In this document: in pieces, positions 2,871-38,571 of the stretch
How the letters are laid out: each line of letters starts with the position of its first letter
How positions within the stretch are numbered: position 1 is the first letter of the stretch
Position numbers and translations under genes: made by a program
IMG/VR virus record: IMGVR_UViG_3300030105_001626
Coordinates: 13,625-77,624 of that record
Direction: 5' to 3' (one strand)
Source: a virus
DNA: 64,000 bases
Notes under the pieces: model-generated
Database searches by the model: none
Told to the model about the DNA's origin: nothing
What the model saw: the letters and a program-made list of their open reading frames with translations, nothing else

Positions 2871-4940
2871 CTAGTTACTGTCATTCTTACTGATGTTGTT
2901 ATTCAAAGTAGGCTCGTTCTGAAAGGTCTCAGGCTTTACTTTCTTATCTTTTTCTTTCTTAGCTGCTTCTTTTACCGTTTGTACCTTTTTACTTAAATCA
3001 TATGGTTTATTTCTAGGTCTTTGCGAATAATCAGGAATTTTAGATTTACCAGTCGCAAAACTCTTTTGTGTTTCCATATCATTTAATTTCTTAGCAACAC
3101 GGTCTGAAGCTGAAGATTCTTTTACCACCATACTCTTTAGTTTGTCTTTTCTTTTTGACATGTATCTTGAAGCTGGAGTACTATCTTTTGCAATTTTTGC
3201 TTTTGATTTTGCTATTTTCTTCGCATATCCAGGATTAGTCTTATCTATCATATTAGCAATATCATTATCTTCTTTTGCTAATTTTTGAGTTGCAGTATGA
3301 ATGCCTTTCGTTCTTACTTTCATTCGTTGGCTATACATATCTTTCATTTCATTATCTCTTGGTCGAGTTGCATAAGCTCTACCTTGAGCATTACGACTTA
3401 ATGAACCTGCAGCTTGTGGTATATAACTTTTTAATGTATTTTTAGATAACTCATCTAAAGACTCATTCTTTGGTTTAGTTAAAGCTTGTTCATTAGGACC
3501 ATAACCTTTTGGTGTTACATCTGTAGTTTTAAAACTATTTGCTGGCATATTTTTCTTAGCAACTCGTTTCATTAGTTGTTGAATATGTGGAGGTAATTCT
3601 TTCTTCTTAGCGGGTTTAGAATTAGCAAGTCTCGCATCTTCTTTTCTATTTGTATCTATATTTTTATAGTAACCTTCTTTGATATCTCTAACAGTAGGTC
3701 TTAAAAGTGCAGCTACTTCTTCATTCTTAAATGAACCAGGTGATGAGACTGAATCAGAACCCATTGTGTCTGCCCATTGACTTGTGTTTGGTTTTTTGTG
3801 TTTAGATGGTGCATTTTTTAAAGTACTTGCAAGTCTCTGATTATCTGTTTTGCCTTTAGGTTCACCTCCATATTCTCTTTGAGTCTTTTGTTGTGTTACA
3901 ATCTTATTAGCTCTTTGGCGATTAGATTCTTTTGTTCTAGCTAACTTCTCTGCAGGTGTCTCTTCAATCATTCTTTGTGGTTCTTTAGTGTGAAGATGAA
4001 CATCAATACCTTTAGTGTCTTTTGCACCAAATTGTTTTGCTGCATTTTTAGCTGCATCATATGATGATGTGCCTTTAACTTTTCTTGTACCATGTTTAAC
4101 ATGAACAGCTGTGTAATCTCTATTTTCTTTAGTTAATTTATCTGTAGCTCTATTAATACCTTTTCTTCGATTGAAAATTGTTCTTTGTCTAGCCATACGC
4201 TCTGCTCGAGTATCATCAAAAGAAGCTTCTGGTTCATTATCTCTCACATGGTCAGTAGCATCTTTATGTGCTTTCTTAATATAAGAACCCATTGTTTTTG
4301 GTGCTAACTCATTTAATTCTATCTGTTGTAAACGAAAGTCTGTAATTTCTGAATCTGTCATTTCTGATATAGCGATAATTAAGTCATTTCTATAGCTTTC
4401 TGTAGCTTCTATTCTACTGCCGCCTTTGTAATCACCACTTCTATCTACATTAGTTTCAGTAAAAGAATCTACATAAGATTTATTAGTGTTTCGTTTGCGG
4501 CCTCCAGCAGTACTTTCTCTTTCTTTTGTTTTTTTCATTGGACCAATATATGCTTTTTTGCTTGGGTCTTTTCTCATTCCTGCAGTTTTAACTTCTTTAG
4601 CACCTGCAAAAGGAAGTGAATCTTCTTTCACACAATTATTTACACGCTTGCCTGTGTTTTTGCCAGTTCCTGGTTTTGTGCCTTTTTTTCTATAGCCGTC
4701 CCAACACTTATCATATCCATCCACAGCATCCGCTTCTTTCATGATATTGTCATGATTAGCAATTGCATATTCATTAGCATCCTTTTCGTTATCAAATTCT
4801 TTAGCAATACTACCACTGTTGTTGTAGACACAATATGTTCCATCTTTATGTCTCGTAACGTGGTCTTTAGGGTCCATTTCTTCGTTTTGAGTAAAAGATT
4901 CAAGTGCCTTTCGTTTTTGTTCTTTCAGTGTTATTGCCAT
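2871..4940 (-). CDS. large charged protein, probable capsid-internal protein
   Basis: 689 aa Lys/Glu-rich; repeated module LNELAPKTMGSYIKKA / LDELSKNTLKSYIPQA; many xxE sites resembling gp21 cleavage sites. Confidence 0.6.
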   Translation of the reverse strand: MAITLKEQKRKALESFTQNEEMDPKDHVTRHKDGTYCVYNNSGSIAKEFDNEKDANEYAIANHDNIMKEADAVDGYDKCWDGYRKKGTKPGTGKNTGKRVNNCVKEDSLPFAGAKEVKTAGMRKDPSKKAYIGPMKKTKERESTAGGRKRNTNKSYVDSFTETNVDRSGDYKGGSRIEATESYRNDLIIAISEMTDSEITDFRLQQIELNELAPKTMGSYIKKAHKDATDHVRDNEPEASFDDTRAERMARQRTIFNRRKGINRATDKLTKENRDYTAVHVKHGTRKVKGTSSYDAAKNAAKQFGAKDTKGIDVHLHTKEPQRMIEETPAEKLARTKESNRQRANKIVTQQKTQREYGGEPKGKTDNQRLASTLKNAPSKHKKPNTSQWADTMGSDSVSSPGSFKNEEVAALLRPTVRDIKEGYYKNIDTNRKEDARLANSKPAKKKELPPHIQQLMKRVAKKNMPANSFKTTDVTPKGYGPNEQALTKPKNESLDELSKNTLKSYIPQAAGSLSRNAQGRAYATRPRDNEMKDMYSQRMKVRTKGIHTATQKLAKEDNDIANMIDKTNPGYAKKIAKSKAKIAKDSTPASRYMSKRKDKLKSMVVKESSASDRVAKKLNDMETQKSFATGKSKIPDYSQRPRNKPYDLSKKVQTVKEAAKKEKDKKVKPETFQNEPTLNNNISKNDSN

Positions 4941-33900: not shown

Positions 33901-36320
33901 TTAAGCAGCAATTTTATCAATAAATTTACTCACCAGAACTCTGTTAATAACCTTTGATTTATTCACTTTCATAAATGCATTTTTTAATTTGTTAGCAGTT
34001 ACTTTTCCTGATACTTCAACTTCTTTGTCAGCAGCATTTAAGTCTTTGCCTCCAAGAATCATGTAGAAATCATCATAGTTTGGTTTTTGAGAAACCAATA
34101 ATTTTTCTTTTCTAAATATTTTAACAATATTCTTTTGATATTCCCACTTCTCGTATCCTTTATCACTAACAGTTTGACCATCTTCATTTACATATTGTCT
34201 GTAAATAGCATCTTTAACTTCTCTTGAATTTGGAGCAACAATATAGAAACCAATAATTTTAGAACCGGTTAACTTTTTAAACCAATCCATAGTATTAAGA
34301 AATACTTGATTTGTATTATAATGTCCTTGTTTAATTCTAGATGTAAATCTTATTGAATCATCTTTAATCACTATGTTAGTTTCTTGAGTGTCCATTCTTT
34401 TAGTATGTTCATGTGGAAAATGTTCTTCTTTAGGCATATATTTATTTTTTAAGTTATGGTCATTTGGATATTTTTGATATTCATTCAGTCCAAAAGCAGT
34501 GTAGTCATGACAATAGTCAGCATCGCCATCATGTATAATAATTAAATTAACAATGTCAAGACCTCTAGAAGCTTTGAACTCGTTAGTATATTTACCAAGA
34601 GCAACTAATGCTTGAAGCAGTGGAGTATTTGTTAATCTTTCACTCTTTGGAGTATAAGGTCTATTCACTGAATCATATCTAAGATTGTGGTCATATGATT
34701 TTGCTAACAGTAACATGTTTTGAACTGCTTTAGTATACTCAGCTTTATTCATATTTGAATTAAGATATTCTCTTAAGACAACATTTTCTAATTTTAATGT
34801 ACCAACTTTAGTTTCAAAAGATGAAACATCTTCAAGTCCATCTTTATAAGTTTTACTGTCAAATTCTATATCTCTATCCATATACCAAGTTGTACTTGTA
34901 TCTGAAAATGTTTGAACTGTAAATGGAATATTTACTTTTCTACAAAAACTAGAAAGTATTAATACTTGCTCAATAGCACCTTGAATATTATCCCACATTG
35001 AACCAGAATAATCTAATAACAGAATCAGTCCGTGAGATTTACCTTTAGGTATAATCATCATCTTTTTGAAAATGTCATCATTGAATTTATAAGAAGCAAG
35101 TTTGTTAATATCTAAATCACCAGTACTTGCAGTTCTTCTCTTGCCATAAACTTTGGCAGCTTTTTTCATTTCGAATTCTTTAGCAAGTAAAGCTACAAAC
35201 TTATCATTTTTCTTTTTAAAGTCATTATAGATTTCATCTTTGTAACCTTTCTTAAAATATCCTGCAACTTCTTGGTTTTGAAAATCGTTAGATAATAATT
35301 CTTGAACTTTTTTAGCAGGAGTGATAATATTTTTCATGATAGGTTTAGGAAAGTCAAGGTAAATAAACTCTTTACTTTCTTCGTCAACTAATGAGTTCTC
35401 ATTATTTCTATAATTTTCATCAGTTTCACATCTTGGTCCATCATCAACTTCTGATTCTTCGTAACCTGAATCTTTAAATCTATTTAATCCTGTAATTTCG
35501 CCATTTTCATCTGATTCTTCTGAATCATCATCATCATCGCAATTTGTTTTATTTTCATTTTCGTCTTCACCTTCTTCTGAATCATCATCTGAATTATTTT
35601 CAGAATTATTGCCGTCTTTACCGTCATCATCTTGAGAATCATCATTTTCATATTCATCATAACCTGAATCTTCATCATCAGGGTCTTCAGAAAAGTATTG
35701 CTCTTCTTGTGACATCATCTCGTCCTGATAATCTAATTGCTCTTCAGTTGAATATGCATATATATCATTCGTAACATTAACAACATCTGACCATGATTCT
35801 GTAGTCTTAACTCTTTCTAATAATTTAGTTTCTTCTTCATTAAAATCAAGAGCCATAGTATATTGTGATTTAGTATAAAGATTTAGTCTATCGATAAAAG
35901 CTAATTTGTTAGCGTCTCTACCTTGAAGACCAAAGAAATCTTTTTCTCTTAAATCAGCATATGCTGTTTTGAATGATTTTTTTAGACCTGGATATTTTCT
36001 TTGTACACGCTTCTCGATTCTAGCATCTTCAATTACATTTAAAAAGTTTTTATAATTCTTACCTTTATTATTAATTGTAACTGCATCATGCCATCCTTCA
36101 GCAGGTGTATACAGAGCATGGCCAACTTCATGTCCACAAAGTAAATCATAAGTTGTACCTATCATATCAGTCCAGATTGGAAGATATAATATTCTGTTTT
36201 TAGGGTCGAACTTTGCAGTAGAAATCTTCTGATGTTCGATTGTTAGATTTTCATTAGCCATCAGTTTTGCTAACTGAGACTTCTGTTCTTGTAATAAATT
36301 GTCTTCTTTTTTCACTATCA
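33901..36320 (-). CDS. CobT-like metallopeptidase-vWA protein (partner of CobS)
   Basis: HEVGH zinc motif, NVIEDARIE, acidic linker, DYSGSM MIDAS; start uncertain because the ORF-track start overlaps a promoter. Confidence 0.8.
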
Positions 36321-36328
36321 TGTAATCC

Positions 36329-36356
36329 ATTATACAGATTTCCATGCAAAAGTCAA
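36329..36356 (-). promoter_or_regulatory. sigma70-type early promoter
   Basis: CTCGAAAGTGC-TTGACT-N16-TATAAT. Confidence 0.85.
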
Positions 36357-36419
36357 GCACTTTCGAGCTTTATTTTAGCAATTTAATGATAAGTTTTACT
36401 TATTAAAGAACTCAATAAG

Positions 36420-36488
36420 TGGAGCGGAGATTAGGATTCGCACCTAAAGAATTGACTGGAAGCCATTTCTGTTCTACTACTTCTCCGC
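36420..36488 (-). tRNA. atypical D-armless tRNA-Gly(UCC)-like RNA, copy B
   Basis: Acceptor GCGGAGA/TCTCCGC followed by T-CCA; T arm TTAGG-TGCGAAT-CCTAA; loop CTTCCAG; no D stem. Confidence 0.75.
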
Positions 36489-36494
36489 AAAAAG

Positions 36495-36563
36495 TGGAGC
36501 GGTGTGTCAGATTCGCACTGACTGATTAAACGGGAAGAATAATCTGTTCTACTAACCCACCGC
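36495..36563 (-). tRNA. atypical D-armless tRNA-Gly-like RNA, copy A
   Basis: Acceptor GCGGTG/CACCGC followed by T-CCA; T arm GTCAG-TGCGAAT-CTGAC; loop CTTCCCG; no D stem. Confidence 0.75.
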
Positions 36564-36575
36564 AATTAAGTAACC

Positions 36576-36603
36576 ATTATACATGATTGACATCACAAGT
36601 CAA
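36576..36603 (-). promoter_or_regulatory. sigma70 promoter driving the tRNA-like pair
   Basis: TTGACT-N16-TATAAT, ending 12 nt before copy A. Confidence 0.85.
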
Positions 36604-36618
36604 GCATTATATCCATTA

Positions 36619-37899
36619 TTACCGACCAACTTGGTCTAGATAATAATCTTTAGTTTCTTCCCACGATAACACCGTTAAGTTATCATAGAATAATGTTTCT
36701 GTAGAAACTCGGTCTGATTCTTTTAAATTTCTAATTCTCTTTGTTGCATATCTTTCTTTCCATAAAGTTACCAGAGCTTCAGTCGAAGTATCAAATGATT
36801 TTACTAATTTGTCTTCAGTAATATCACCTCTTAAGAACTCGGCTGAATTATTGTATAAAGGAGAAAAGTATATACCTCTGGCATGAGCTGATTGTGTTAA
36901 TGCTTTATCCATTTTCATTTGTGAATATGCAAATGATAGTGACCTATTCTTATGGTCTCTTTTGTGTGGTTGCCCACTTGGTTTCTTTGCAACATACCAT
37001 TCAAAGTATTTTCTGGTATGATTTTTCTTTATCCAATCATTAATTTTATTTCTAGTCACTCTTCTTGGTTCAAACTTAACTGAACCTGCAGTGAATCCCA
37101 TTTTCTTCCAGTGTTTAAGTCTATCGTATTGTGATAGTCCATGAAGTTTCGCTTTACCATATAAGGATGTAGTTGTAACGCCTATTAGCGTGTCACCATA
37201 CAATTCTTTCCATAGTTTCTGTATCTTATCATCTAAACATAATAATGCTAATAACTTACCACCTGTGTAGTTGTAACCTAAAGGTTGTAAAGGAACAATC
37301 GTAGAACCAATCGCTGTATGATTAATCATTGAACCTTGTGTTTTAAGTTCTCTACTCCATCCAATAAAATTATCTCTAGGCGTTAAGTCTAGAAAGTCTG
37401 AAGAAATACAAATAACACCAAGATATTTTTTAGTTGGTTTATCTCTGACAATGAAGTTAAGATTACGACCAATATTAGAATTGTTTTTCATTGTAGATGA
37501 GAATGTTCTAATTACATTCCATAGTTCTGGCAAGTCTTCTTGTTTGTTTGCATATATGAGTTCAGGTTCTATATTCATAAACTCATCTAAGTCTTGTGGA
37601 TTCCAAACATTATTTTTAACTTCTTCAATAGCTATTCTTTGTTTATCGTTGGCTAGAACTTTCTTCTCGCCTTCCCATAAATCATTAACCATAGTGAATG
37701 GATATTTTTCTTGTACTTCACACCACTTTTGATACAATGTATATTCTTTTACGTCCATCTTTGAAACAAATTCAAGGTCTGTAATCGTCTCTTGTTTAAT
37801 TTGTTCAAAGTCAGGGTCATCCATATCTTCTACAGGATTAGCCTCTGACCATTTTTCCCACTGAACTTCTACATCATCTTTTGTATAATCAATTGCCAT
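36619..37899 (-). CDS. DUF4338 (DruA)-like protein, paralog 1
   Basis: GRNLNFIV, RDNFIGW, PLGYNYTGGKLLA, TTTSLYG, SQYDRL. Confidence 0.7.
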   Translation of the reverse strand: MAIDYTKDDVEVQWEKWSEANPVEDMDDPDFEQIKQETITDLEFVSKMDVKEYTLYQKWCEVQEKYPFTMVNDLWEGEKKVLANDKQRIAIEEVKNNVWNPQDLDEFMNIEPELIYANKQEDLPELWNVIRTFSSTMKNNSNIGRNLNFIVRDKPTKKYLGVICISSDFLDLTPRDNFIGWSRELKTQGSMINHTAIGSTIVPLQPLGYNYTGGKLLALLCLDDKIQKLWKELYGDTLIGVTTTSLYGKAKLHGLSQYDRLKHWKKMGFTAGSVKFEPRRVTRNKINDWIKKNHTRKYFEWYVAKKPSGQPHKRDHKNRSLSFAYSQMKMDKALTQSAHARGIYFSPLYNNSAEFLRGDITEDKLVKSFDTSTEALVTLWKERYATKRIRNLKESDRVSTETLFYDNLTVLSWEETKDYYLDQVGR

Positions 37900-38571
37900 T
37901 TACATTTCGTTCCATTTAAATTTGTTTTTCTGTTTTCTTGTTTCAGTCTTCATTAGTTTATTCTGCTTCTTCTTTGCTAAGGATAACACAAGATTGGACA
38001 CCTGTGAGGTAAACTTTATTCCGTTCATATGGTCTAATTCGTGTTGAAAACATCGTGCTAACATTCCATCTAAATGTTTATTTACAGTCTCGCCATTTTC
38101 ATCTTGATATTCAACGTCAATCTCTTCGTATCTCTTTATAGAAAGAATTAAACCAGGATAAGATAAACAACCTTCATCTAGCTTAATATCATTTTGGCCA
38201 AATGCAATCAATTTAGGATTAACACAAACCATCTCTTCACCTAGATGTGTCATTATAAACATTCTTGTTGACACATTACATTGATTAGCTGATAATCCAA
38301 TACCACCAAACTTTCTCATGGTCATTTTCATTCTCGCTATGAGTGTTCTCATGTTAGCATTAGGTAAAGCTTCATCATAAACAGGCATTGTTTCACTTAA
38401 CAATGGAAGTTGGTCGTCATATAAATCTAATGGTTCTTCTCTGAGTTTTTTTATCTCTTCAGTTGGGTTTTCTTTTGTTTCTGGTCCAAGGCCTTCTGCT
38501 GTGCTATAGTTAAATGTCATGCCTGGTTCAGTAACTACTGTTGTATCATCAAATTGTTTAATATCACTCAT
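37900..38571 (-). CDS. def: peptide deformylase
   Basis: GIGLSANQ, EGCLS, QHELDH. Confidence 0.95.
   Translation of the reverse strand: MSDIKQFDDTTVVTEPGMTFNYSTAEGLGPETKENPTEEIKKLREEPLDLYDDQLPLLSETMPVYDEALPNANMRTLIARMKMTMRKFGGIGLSANQCNVSTRMFIMTHLGEEMVCVNPKLIAFGQNDIKLDEGCLSYPGLILSIKRYEEIDVEYQDENGETVNKHLDGMLARCFQHELDHMNGIKFTSQVSNLVLSLAKKKQNKLMKTETRKQKNKFKWNEM

What the first reader, a model, noticed from the sequence alone, without database searches (positions are those of the whole stretch)
36420..36563. Tandem 69-nt D-armless tRNA-Gly-like RNAs with covarying stems
Both copies have identical length and architecture: G1-C72, C2-G71, G3-C70, U73 and an encoded CCA (bacterial GlyRS identity). 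A 12-nt unpaired segment (shared TAGTAGAACA) replaces the D arm, an extended anticodon arm surrounds CTTCC(A/C)G, there is almost no variable loop, and the T loop is TGCGAAT instead of TTCGAAT. Stem sequences differ between copies but pairing is preserved (T stem GTCAG/CTGAC vs TTAGG/CCTAA), which argues for selection on structure rather than decay. They have their own consensus promoter. D-armless tRNAs are best known from mitochondria. Alternative roles are decoys for anticodon nucleases or tRNA-sensing defences.
Basis: partly seen in the sequence, partly recalled or inferred. Interest (0 to 1): 0.85.

Follow-up and report, generated by a model that had tools for sequence, protein, structure and literature searches.

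The report
Tandem mini glycine tRNAs in phage
A marine T4-like phage carries two shrunken glycine-tRNA look-alikes directly behind an acyltransferase-fold (DruA/GNAT) gene; they keep every mark needed for loading with glycine but have lost much of what ribosomal decoding needs, so they are probably private glycine carriers for a reaction outside protein synthesis, a role that is untested.

Summary
Two 69-nt RNAs lie on the minus strand at 36495-36563 and 36420-36488. Each has GCGG.../...CCGC, U73 and an encoded CCA, an NCC loop, a TGCGAAT T loop and a shared sigma70-like promoter. Standard ARAGORN and Rfam miss them.

They belong to a conserved family of 63-69 nt with 41 distinct versions. In every locus checked, the reduced forms lie 20-80 nt (a few about 550-770 nt) downstream of a DruA/DUF4338 gene. 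Acceptor and T stems covary strongly. The D arm is reduced, not absent: a 3-bp mini stem covaries (GTT/AAC, GTC/GAC, GTA/TAC), although copy 2 here has lost it.

The glycyl-tRNA synthetase identity set is invariant. Decoding features are not: loops of 4-7 nt, G33 in close relatives, and C37.

The neighbouring protein folds confidently as a GNAT. Its top solved match is phage Mu Mom (Z 11.0, tied with ordinary GNATs), which moves glycine from Gly-tRNAGly onto DNA adenine. Staphylococcal non-proteogenic tRNAGly share the TGC T-loop triplet.

Best reading (about 0.5): private, non-ribosomal glycine donors for the DruA-type enzyme. The acceptor is unknown. Rivals are a reduced decoding tRNA and a decoy.

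This scan has already reported the same system in at least 29 other genomes. I found no paper describing it.

The parts
36495..36563 (-). Mini tRNA-Gly copy 1 (69 nt). Acceptor GCGGTG/CACCGC plus a G7.A66 mismatch. Mini D stem GTT/AAC with loop AGTAG. Anticodon-like arm GATTA(TT)/(TT)TAATC with loop CUUCCCG (UCC, C37). T arm GTCAG-TGCGAAT-CTGAC. U73 and encoded CCA.
   Evidence: covariance-model score 73.9 bits, E 2e-15
36420..36488 (-). Mini tRNA-Gly copy 2 (69 nt). Acceptor of 7 bp, GCGGAGA/TCTCCGC. A 12-nt linker AGTAGTAGAACA with no mini D pairing. A 7-position anticodon-like stem with one A.A mismatch and loop CUUCCAG (C32, U33, UCC, A37). T arm TTAGG-TGCGAAT-CCTAA. U73 and encoded CCA.
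   Evidence: 73.6 bits; ARAGORN -mt calls it Gly(tcc)
36489..36494 (-). 6-nt spacer (CTTTTT) between the two copies.
36576..36603 (-). Sigma70-like promoter TTGACT-16-TATAAT. Its -10 box ends 12 nt before G1 of copy 1. A promoter in the same position occurs in front of the RNA in all family classes.
36619..37899 (-). Gene for a 426-aa DruA/DUF4338-family protein with a GNAT-fold core (residues about 107-370). It is the proposed user of the RNAs.
   Evidence: Pfam PF14236, 80.3 bits against a cutoff of 27. PADLOC DruA, E 2e-17. AF2 model pLDDT 94.8. Top structural match Mu Mom 8bv8, Z 10.4-11.0.
37900..38571 (-). Peptide deformylase gene. Its end abuts the DruA-like start codon (context; same operon).
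36329..36356 (-). Second TTGACT-16-TATAAT promoter, in front of the downstream 819-aa 'peptidase' gene. It marks the 3' boundary of the RNA unit.

Best explanation
The two RNAs are phage-encoded, non-proteogenic derivatives of tRNA-Gly.

Proposed pathway:
1. They are transcribed from their own early-type promoter and trimmed to the encoded CCA end (inferred).
2. The host glycyl-tRNA synthetase charges them, because they keep its full identity set (inferred from sequence).
3. They then serve as private carriers of activated glycine for a tRNA-dependent transferase. The most likely user is the GNAT-fold DruA-type enzyme encoded immediately upstream (inferred from linkage and fold).

The shrunken D arm, the T loop without TTC and the irregular anticodon loop would keep them away from EF-Tu and the ribosome. 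The enzyme's supply of glycine would then not compete with translation, as in staphylococci.

The acceptor of the glycine is unknown. DNA (a Mom-like base modification) is the leading guess. A protein N-terminus is an alternative, given the co-transcribed peptide deformylase.
For: 1. The RNA family is real and structured. There are 41 distinct sequences. T-stem and acceptor pairs 5-68 and 6-67 covary, and the mini D stem has three Watson-Crick variants.

2. What is invariant matches what GlyRS reads: G1-C72, C2-G71, G3-C70 (and G4-C69), U73, CCA, and a CC in the loop (triplets UCC, CCC or ACC). The identity set itself is established knowledge from E. coli tRNAGly.

3. What varies is what decoding needs. 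Loops range from 4 to 7 nt (CCCC or CCCA tetraloops in the 63-nt class). The copy-2 orthologue has G33 in phages whose DruA protein is 98% identical to this one. Position 37 is C. There is no G18G19. No member has TTC in the T loop.

4. Staphylococcal non-proteogenic tRNAGly, which feed Fem transferases and bind EF-Tu poorly, carry TGC or TGT instead of TTC in the T loop (PMC7826273). Both window copies have TGC.

5. Linkage is consistent. Every locus that carries a reduced RNA (63-69 nt) has the DruA-like gene directly upstream. This includes the loci found by a DNA pattern scan that did not use the protein.

6. The DruA-like protein has a confident GNAT model. Mu Mom is its top solved match in two listings (Z 10.4 with 170 aligned residues; Z 11.0 with 185 aligned residues). 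Mom transfers glycine from Gly-tRNAGly to N6 of adenine in dsDNA (PMC13219725). DUF4338 has been called a GNAT domain independently (PMC10853773).

7. GGG makes up 1.9% of Gly codons in this phage, so a translational need for the family's commonest triplet (CCC) is weak.
Against: - No chemistry has been shown: no charging, no transfer, no acceptor.
- Linkage comes from one phage clade with conserved gene order, so it amounts to roughly one evolutionary observation.
- Relatives carry the DruA-like gene without the RNA at this site. These include Mosig, HTVC008M, L112-L122, and L123-L130, where the gene sits among replication genes.
- Related odd tRNA-Gly genes sit elsewhere in other phages: beside S21 in HTVC008M and in a tRNA cluster in L139.
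- Mom's lead over ordinary acetyl-CoA GNATs is under 1 Z unit, which counts as a tie. Sequence profiles do not link DruA to Mom. The protein keeps a partial Q-x-x-G motif, so an acyl-CoA donor is not excluded.
- The window's own copy 2 has a regular 7-nt loop with C32-U33-UCC-A37 and could still decode.
Confidence: 0.5

Rival explanations
1. They are working translational tRNAs. On this view they are structurally reduced phage tRNA-Gly (UCC) that supplement the host pool for GGA/GGN codons, as metazoan mitochondrial tRNAs with reduced D arms do.
For: - T4-like relatives carry ordinary tRNA sets that include tRNA-Gly(UCC).
- Graded intermediates exist: 74-76-nt forms with 7-nt loops in HTVC008M, L141 and L027.
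- The triplet is always NCC.
- Copy 2 has C32-U33-UCC-A37. C32 with an unmodified UCC is linked to reading all four Gly codons (PMC7826273).
- GGA makes up 23% of Gly codons.
Against: - Most of the family has loops of 4-6 nt.
- G33 replaces U33 in copy-2 orthologues of near-identical phages.
- Copy 1 and the main family have C37.
- There is no G18G19-T-loop elbow, and the TGC T loop is the mark of staphylococcal tRNAs that do not bind ribosomes or EF-Tu.
- Mitochondrial truncated tRNAs need co-evolved factors (established knowledge), and no such factor is seen here.
- A CCC reader would serve only 1.9% of Gly codons.
Confidence: 0.2
2. They are decoys or sponges. On this view the chargeable tRNA-Gly mimics soak up a host factor that acts on the acceptor end or on Gly-tRNAGly. 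Candidates are a GNAT toxin of the TacT type, a nucleotidyltransferase toxin or a deacylase. Alternatively they titrate GlyRS or uncharged-tRNA sensing.
For: - The acceptor end is invariant while the body is free to vary.
- Two copies under an early-type promoter suggest high dosage.
- TacT is a GNAT that targets Gly-tRNAGly (PMC13219725).
Against: - No such host system is identified for the likely hosts.
- This does not explain the fixed position behind the DruA-like gene.
Confidence: 0.12
3. The RNA is the target or regulator of the neighbouring GNAT rather than its donor. For example, the enzyme might acetylate the glycyl moiety or a cytidine of the C-rich loop (as TmcA does on C34). Alternatively the RNA might guide or scaffold the enzyme.
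For: - GNATs that modify tRNA exist: TacT, AtaT and TmcA (PMC13219725).
- The loop has an invariant C-rich core.
- Gene and RNA are tightly linked.
Against: - This does not explain why the complete GlyRS identity set and CCA end are kept.
- No helicase or anticodon-binding module of the TmcA type is seen in the model.
Confidence: 0.08

Closest known systems
Non-proteogenic tRNAGly (NP1-NP3) of Staphylococcus aureus and S. epidermidis, donors for FmhB/FemA/FemB
   Same: Both are dedicated glycine tRNAs that keep GlyRS charging but diverge in the D and T regions. Both have TGC or TGT in place of TTC in the T loop. In staphylococci the purpose is to separate a non-ribosomal glycine supply from translation (PMC7826273).
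   Different: - The staphylococcal tRNAs are full-size cloverleaves encoded by the cell. They belong to a lineage reported only in staphylococci, and their use by Fem enzymes is shown.
- Here the RNAs are phage-encoded and 63-69 nt long, with a 3-bp or absent D stem and irregular anticodon loops. Their use is inferred.
- The resemblance is convergent, not common descent.
Bacteriophage Mu Mom (Pfam PF25680, PDB 8bv8)
   Same: Both are phage GNAT-fold enzymes. Mom is the top solved structural match of the neighbouring protein (Z 10.4-11.0, 170-185 residues aligned). Mom uses Gly-tRNAGly as acyl donor, and all E. coli isoacceptors work, which suggests it recognises the acceptor end (PMC13219725).
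   Different: - Mom takes the host's tRNAGly and has no private RNA.
- The window protein is 426 aa with extra N- and C-terminal parts and belongs to Pfam DruA, not Mom.
- Profile comparison with Mom is not significant.
- The structural lead over ordinary GNATs is under 1 Z unit.
DruA (DUF4338) of type I Druantia anti-phage systems
   Same: The neighbouring protein is a sequence member of this family (Pfam 80 bits; PADLOC E 2e-17).
   Different: Here the gene is in a phage, with no DruB-E partners nearby. Its neighbours are peptide deformylase, SbcCD and a peptidase/CobS pair. DruA's biochemistry is not described in the papers I read.
Metazoan mitochondrial tRNAs with reduced or missing D arms (e.g. 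tRNA-Ser(AGY))
   Same: Both are short, with a lost D-loop/T-loop elbow and an extended anticodon stem. ARAGORN's mitochondrial mode recognises copy 2.
   Different: The mitochondrial tRNAs decode on specialised ribosomes with adapted factors. These RNAs are in a bacteriophage, mostly lack a 7-nt anticodon loop, and keep a bacterial-type acceptor end with an encoded CCA.
Ordinary phage tRNA-Gly(UCC) of T4-like phages
   Same: Probable ancestor. It has the same GCGG.../...CCGCUCCA acceptor end, and intermediates of 71-76 nt exist in relatives.
   Different: The canonical forms have a full D arm, a TTC T loop and a 7-nt loop, and standard tools find them.

Membership tests
Canonical bacterial/phage tRNA (Rfam RF00005; ARAGORN standard) | Cloverleaf with a 3-4-bp D stem and a D loop carrying G18G19 | tested here: not met
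   Copy 1 has a 3-bp stem GTT/AAC with a 5-nt loop AGTAG and no GG. Copy 2 has no D pairing. ARAGORN finds 0 genes and Rfam gives no hit at E<=10.
Canonical bacterial/phage tRNA (Rfam RF00005; ARAGORN standard) | T loop T54-Psi55-C56 (TTC in DNA) with a G53-C61 closing pair | tested here: not met
   The T loop is TGCGAAT in both copies. The family shows TGC, TGT, TTT, TTA or AGC and never TTC. G53-C61 is invariant.
Canonical bacterial/phage tRNA (Rfam RF00005; ARAGORN standard) | 7-nt anticodon loop with U33 and a purine at position 37 | tested here: inconclusive
   Copy 2 (CUUCCAG) meets it. Copy 1 (CUUCCCG) has C37. Orthologues have G33 or loops of 4-6 nt.
Canonical bacterial/phage tRNA (Rfam RF00005; ARAGORN standard) | 7-bp acceptor stem, discriminator base and 3' CCA | tested here: met
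   Copy 2 has 7 bp. Copy 1 has 6 bp plus a G.A mismatch. Both have U73 and an encoded CCA.
Substrate of bacterial (alpha2beta2-type) glycyl-tRNA synthetase | Identity set G1-C72, C2-G71, G3-C70, U73, C35, C36 (established knowledge from E. coli tRNAGly) | tested here: met
   All are present in both copies. They are invariant in the 40 distinct family sequences counted (the partial L006 row has a gap there), and the loop CC is present in every sequence parsed. Actual aminoacylation cannot be tested with these tools.
Non-proteogenic tRNAGly (staphylococcal type) | TGC or TGT instead of TTC in the T loop | tested here: met
   Both copies have TGCGAAT. The rule comes from PMC7826273.
Non-proteogenic tRNAGly (staphylococcal type) | Poor binding to EF-Tu-GTP and ribosomes; preferential use by a tRNA-dependent transferase | not testable with these tools
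   Needs biochemistry.
Non-proteogenic tRNAGly (staphylococcal type) | Membership of the staphylococcal paralogue lineage | tested here: not met
   These RNAs are phage-encoded in a T4-like marine phage. The paper reports the lineage only in staphylococci. The likeness is functional or convergent.
DruA / DUF4338 (Pfam PF14236), for the neighbouring protein | Profile match above the curated cutoff | tested here: met
   80.3 bits against a cutoff of 27, residues 108-358. PADLOC DruA, E 2.4e-17.
Type I Druantia system | druA followed by druB-E, including the DruE helicase | tested here: not met
   The flanking genes are peptide deformylase, SbcC/SbcD-like, peptidase and a CobS-like AAA protein. 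No helicase partner is adjacent.
Mom family (Pfam PF25680), for the neighbouring protein | Sequence-profile membership | tested here: not met
   There is no PF25680 hit even at E<=10, while Mu Mom itself scores 253 bits. hhalign of the 61-sequence profile against Mom gives probability 1%.
Mom family (Pfam PF25680), for the neighbouring protein | Mom-like GNAT structure with an extra insertion | tested here: inconclusive
   8bv8 ranks first (Z 10.4 and 11.0) and has the longest aligned stretch (170 and 185 residues). It is within 1 Z unit of ordinary GNATs. I could not inspect residue-level equivalence of R111, S124 and R151.
Mom family (Pfam PF25680), for the neighbouring protein | Use of Gly-tRNAGly as donor and dsDNA adenine as acceptor | not testable with these tools
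   Needs enzymology and nucleoside mass spectrometry.

The most novel reading that the evidence does not exclude
Phage and cell DruA-type GNATs are aminoacyl-tRNA-dependent transferases. This phage clade has evolved a self-contained two-part system: a minimal, ribosome-invisible tRNAGly (down to 63 nt) charged by the host GlyRS, and an enzyme that moves that glycine onto phage DNA (a Mom-like hypermodification) or another macromolecule. This would be the first private aminoacyl carrier RNA known in a virus and would give Druantia DruA a biochemical function.
Probability: 0.3. Interest if true: 0.9.

Novelty: new variant of a known kind. Interest (0 to 1): 0.8.

Why it matters
- Strongly reduced tRNAs are a textbook peculiarity of animal mitochondria. 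A conserved, covarying family of 63-69-nt tRNA-Gly derivatives in abundant marine and freshwater T4-like phages would be new for bacteria and their viruses.
- If they are glycine donors for the adjacent DruA-type GNAT, they show a virus solving the supply problem as staphylococci do, with a dedicated non-proteogenic tRNA.
- That would extend tRNA-dependent chemistry of the Mom type, which was established only in 2026.
- It would also give a testable hypothesis for DruA, a component of the Druantia defence system with no known function.
- These RNAs define how little of a tRNA GlyRS, RNase P and the 3'-end processing enzymes need.
- Standard tRNA finders miss them, so they are unannotated in phage genomes.

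Tried and rejected
- Rfam at gathering score on the whole window, and at E<=10 on 36300-36700, gave only chance-level hits.
- ARAGORN in standard mode found nothing.
- Searching IMG/VR with a distant DruA homologue (P0018) found no loci.
- Loci from P0057 (L123-L130) and the RNA-less loci gave no covariance-model hit. Whole-contig searches of G001-G003 also found none, but those contigs are 29-55% complete.
I could therefore not inspect the contexts of the more distant protein homologues.
- PDB sequence searches with the protein and with its profile found nothing.
- Foldseek against PDB gave only weak GNAT hits (best E 6e-3).
- hhalign of the DruA-like profile against Mu Mom was not significant. 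A short RGVYF/RGVYL match is noted but unproven.
- The ESM Atlas gave only a sub-threshold 'phage GNAT-like' lead (0.83).
- I aligned the Mosig, HTVC008M and L112 intergenic hairpins with the two copies to test whether they are relics. The result was inconclusive.
- Four metatranscriptome runs were laid on 35900-37400. One RNA-library contig (X15, record 2) covers 36303-36557, that is both copies (all but the first 6 nt of copy 1) plus the start of the next gene, and runs into adapter at 36557. These are contigs and DNA carry-over is possible, so this is no proof of expression. None of the four runs covers 36563-36613, but this is not evidence.
I stopped that step.
- Rejected: two-piece tmRNA acceptor domain, because there is no G3.U70.
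- Rejected: hammerhead or other small ribozymes, because no core motifs are present.
- Rejected: pseudogene decay, because of covariation, the conserved promoter and the invariant identity set.

Full report
**What is there.** The window is a fragment of an uncultured T4-like phage. It is an IMG/VR record of 77.6 kb, estimated 44% complete. Its nearest isolates are Pelagibacter phages Mosig and HTVC008M of the Kyanoviridae. All genes in the window run on the minus strand.

The gap between a 426-aa gene (36619-37899) and an 819-aa 'peptidase' gene (33901-36360) reads as follows on the minus strand:
- a promoter TTGACT-16-TATAAT at 36603-36576, matching 11 of 12 consensus positions;
- a 12-nt leader;
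- RNA copy 1 at 36563-36495;
- a 6-nt spacer;
- RNA copy 2 at 36488-36420;
- a second promoter for the peptidase gene.

Both copies are 69 nt. Each starts with GCGG and ends with CCGC-U-CCA, has a T arm with loop TGCGAAT, and has an NCC-containing loop (CUUCCCG in copy 1, CUUCCAG in copy 2).

Standard ARAGORN finds no tRNA in the window. Rfam finds nothing, even at E<=10. ARAGORN's mitochondrial mode calls copy 2 as Gly(tcc).

**It is a family, and the structure is selected.** I collected relatives in two independent ways. A DNA pattern scan of IMG/VR found the pair and variants of it. A protein-based scan with the upstream gene fetched 80 loci.

Regular-expression extraction gave 35 distinct GCGG...CCGCUCCA elements of 63-76 nt. 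A covariance model built on them found 99 matches, of which 41 are distinct.

On that alignment:
- 85.8% of cells form pairs, against 66.5% in shuffles.
- The covariation score is 0.418 against 0.110 (0 of 500 shuffles reach it). Controls with the partner slid by 1-3 columns give 0.05-0.12.
- Four of five T-stem pairs and acceptor pairs 5-68 and 6-67 change on both sides.
- RNAalifold recovers the acceptor and T stems on its own.

**Architecture.** My own parse gives the following layout:
- acceptor stem of 6-7 bp;
- one linker nucleotide;
- a mini D stem of 3 bp with a loop of 3-5 nt;
- N26;
- an anticodon-like arm;
- a variable region of 1-3 nt;
- a T arm of 5 bp plus a 7-nt loop;
- U73 and CCA.

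The mini D stem occurs as GTT/AAC, GTC/GAC and GTA/TAC, so its third pair is kept through changes on both sides. 'D-armless' is therefore too strong: the arm is reduced to a stub without G18G19. Copy 2 of this window (AGT...AAC) has lost even that.

**What is conserved and what is not.**

Invariant across the family:
- G1-C72, C2-G71, G3-C70 and G4-C69;
- U73 and CCA;
- G53-C61;
- a CC in the loop, so the triplet is always UCC, CCC or ACC.

This is the identity set of bacterial glycyl-tRNA synthetase (established knowledge from E. coli tRNAGly).

Not conserved are the features that decoding needs:
- The 63-64-nt class has CCCC or CCCA tetraloops on a 5-6-bp stem.
- The 68-69-nt class has stems of 7-8 bp with loops of 5-7 nt.
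- Position 37 is C in the main lineage.
- The orthologue of copy 2 carries G33 (CGUCCAG) in phages whose neighbouring protein is 98% identical to this one.
- No member has TTC in the T loop. The variants are TGC, TGT, TTT, TTA and AGC.

GGG, the codon a CCC anticodon would read, makes up 1.9% of Gly codons in the window's genes. GGA makes up 23%.

**Two lineages.** Copy 1 belongs to the main lineage, which is present at nearly all loci (loop C/U-CCC, G7.A66 mismatch). Copy 2 belongs to a second lineage seen only in tandem loci. It has a UCC-A37 loop and a 7-bp acceptor stem.

**Linkage.** In every locus that carries a reduced RNA, it lies downstream of the homologue of the 426-aa gene. The gap is usually 20-80 nt and in a few loci about 550-770 nt. 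It always has its own sigma70-like promoter. The loci found by the DNA pattern alone also have that gene directly upstream.

The linkage is not universal in the wider group:
- Loci whose protein is 63-66% identical carry a different hairpin at this position.
- L077/L078 and L083/L084 (67-69% identical) carry a small ORF there instead.
- Mosig and HTVC008M also carry the hairpin.
- More distant T4-like phages have the gene among replication genes, with no RNA nearby.

HTVC008M carries an unannotated 74-nt tRNA-Gly(ACC) with an AGCGTTA T loop, 4 kb downstream beside the S21 gene. Another contig has 71-nt and 76-nt odd tRNA-Gly genes that ARAGORN misses. There is thus a graded series from near-normal phage tRNA-Gly to the 63-nt form.

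**The neighbouring protein.**
- It is a sequence member of Pfam DruA/DUF4338 (80 bits against a cutoff of 27) and of PADLOC's DruA. There are no Druantia partner genes around it.
- It abuts a peptide deformylase gene.
- It has 944 homologues in the 1.8-billion-protein library.
- An AlphaFold2 model built on 61 sequences is confident, with pLDDT 94.8.
- Residues about 107-370 form a GNAT fold. This agrees with a published statement that DUF4338 is a GNAT domain (PMC10853773).

In an exhaustive structural search, the first hit is phage Mu Mom (8bv8_B, Z 10.4, rmsd 3.9, 170 residues aligned). FemA is also listed at Z 9.1. In a second look at Foldseek's candidates, Mom chain A is again first (Z 11.0, rmsd 4.2, 185 aligned). 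The next hit scores 10.2 with 148 aligned.

By sequence the protein is not a Mom-family member.

Mom was shown in 2026 to transfer glycine from Gly-tRNAGly to N6 of adenine in dsDNA. It probably recognises mainly the acceptor end (PMC13219725).

**Comparison with known systems.** The closest functional analogue of the RNA is the non-proteogenic tRNAGly of staphylococci. These are charged by GlyRS, bind EF-Tu and ribosomes poorly, feed Fem transferases, and have TGC or TGT instead of TTC in the T loop (PMC7826273). Both window copies carry that same triplet. The staphylococcal tRNAs are full-size and belong to a lineage of their own, so the likeness is convergent.

Reduced D arms are otherwise known from metazoan mitochondria (one search lists only such papers). 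I found no paper describing a phage-encoded reduced tRNA or this gene-RNA pair.

**Reading.** The best-supported explanation (about 0.5) is that the two RNAs are private, non-ribosomal glycine carriers. On this view they are charged by the host GlyRS and used by the DruA-type GNAT.
- Shown here: the RNA structure and its conservation, the identity set, the erosion of decoding features, the linkage, and the GNAT fold.
- Inferred: charging, avoidance of EF-Tu, use by this enzyme, and the acceptor.

Rival readings:
- A reduced but working tRNA-Gly (0.2). This is most plausible for copy 2, whose loop is regular.
- A decoy for factors that act on the acceptor end (0.12).
- The RNA as target or regulator of the GNAT (0.08).

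**Expression.** One metatranscriptome contig covers both copies (all but the first 6 nt of copy 1) and the start of the next gene (36303-36557) and runs into adapter at 36557. Contigs cannot prove transcription, so I give this little weight.

**Standing.** Earlier notes of this scan describe the same gene-RNA pair in at least 29 other genomes and read it the same way. I reached that reading from my own tests. Those notes also gave me the Pfam accession of Mom, which I checked. What is particular to this window is the tandem pair, which combines the two RNA lineages.

Noticed in passing
L135:341-414 (KC465899.1 91140-91213, + strand): Pelagibacter phage HTVC008M has a 74-nt tRNA-Gly(ACC) that is not annotated in the GenBank record. 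It lies between the CobS-like gene and the S21 gene. Its T loop is non-canonical (AGCGTTA) and A34 is unusual. It looks like a fuller-size relative of the L085/L096 mini RNAs.
   Followed up: partly
L001:4440-4500 (Mosig) and L002:3760-3812 (HTVC008M), minus strand: At the syntenic spot after the DruA-like (or MazG) gene, these isolates carry TAGTAGAACA or GTAGAACA followed by a hairpin GCTGTGCGA...TGACGCA. This echoes the D and T regions of the mini tRNA. It may be a relic reused as a terminator. L112-L120 have a similar GCTATGCG-loop-CGCA hairpin.
   Followed up: partly
L139:1501-1571 (-) and L141:1501-1576 (-): One phage contig (the one holding L114) carries two odd tRNA-Gly genes that ARAGORN misses. 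One is 71 nt with a 6-nt loop UUCCCA and a TTTAATT T loop, inside a normal tRNA cluster. The other is 76 nt with loop CUUCCAA and an AGCGTTA T loop. Its DruA-like gene lies far away on the same contig.
   Followed up: partly
window 37899-37900: The peptide deformylase ORF ends at the base next to the DruA-like start codon, so the two are probably translated from one mRNA. Mosig has the same gene pair. This keeps a protein N-terminus in play as the glycine acceptor.
   Followed up: no
L077:4260-4520 and L083:2503-2760: In four loci with 67-69% identical DruA-like genes, the RNA slot is taken by a promoter plus a small ORF (it begins MSKLQDFLDDE... in L077). No mini tRNA was found in the sequence held downstream (about 0.6-3 kb).
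   Followed up: no
L123-L128, around 3810-3830: In more distant T4-like phages, the DruA-like gene overlaps the start of the next gene. That gene's translation looks like an AAA+ clamp loader (read by eye, not checked). The enzyme sits in the replication module there, which favours a DNA-related role.
   Followed up: no
window 36303-36557: A metatranscriptome contig (run X15) spans both RNA copies and the 5' end of the peptidase gene. It carries the four substitutions typical of the L018/L045 strain variant and runs into Illumina adapter at 36557, 6 nt inside copy 1.
   Followed up: partly
L006:1143-1215 (-): An unrelated 91-kb phage contig has a regular tRNA cluster whose tRNA-Gln(ttg) shares the AGTAGTAGAACA D-region string and the TGCGAAT T loop with the window's RNAs. 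It is recognised by ARAGORN.
   Followed up: no
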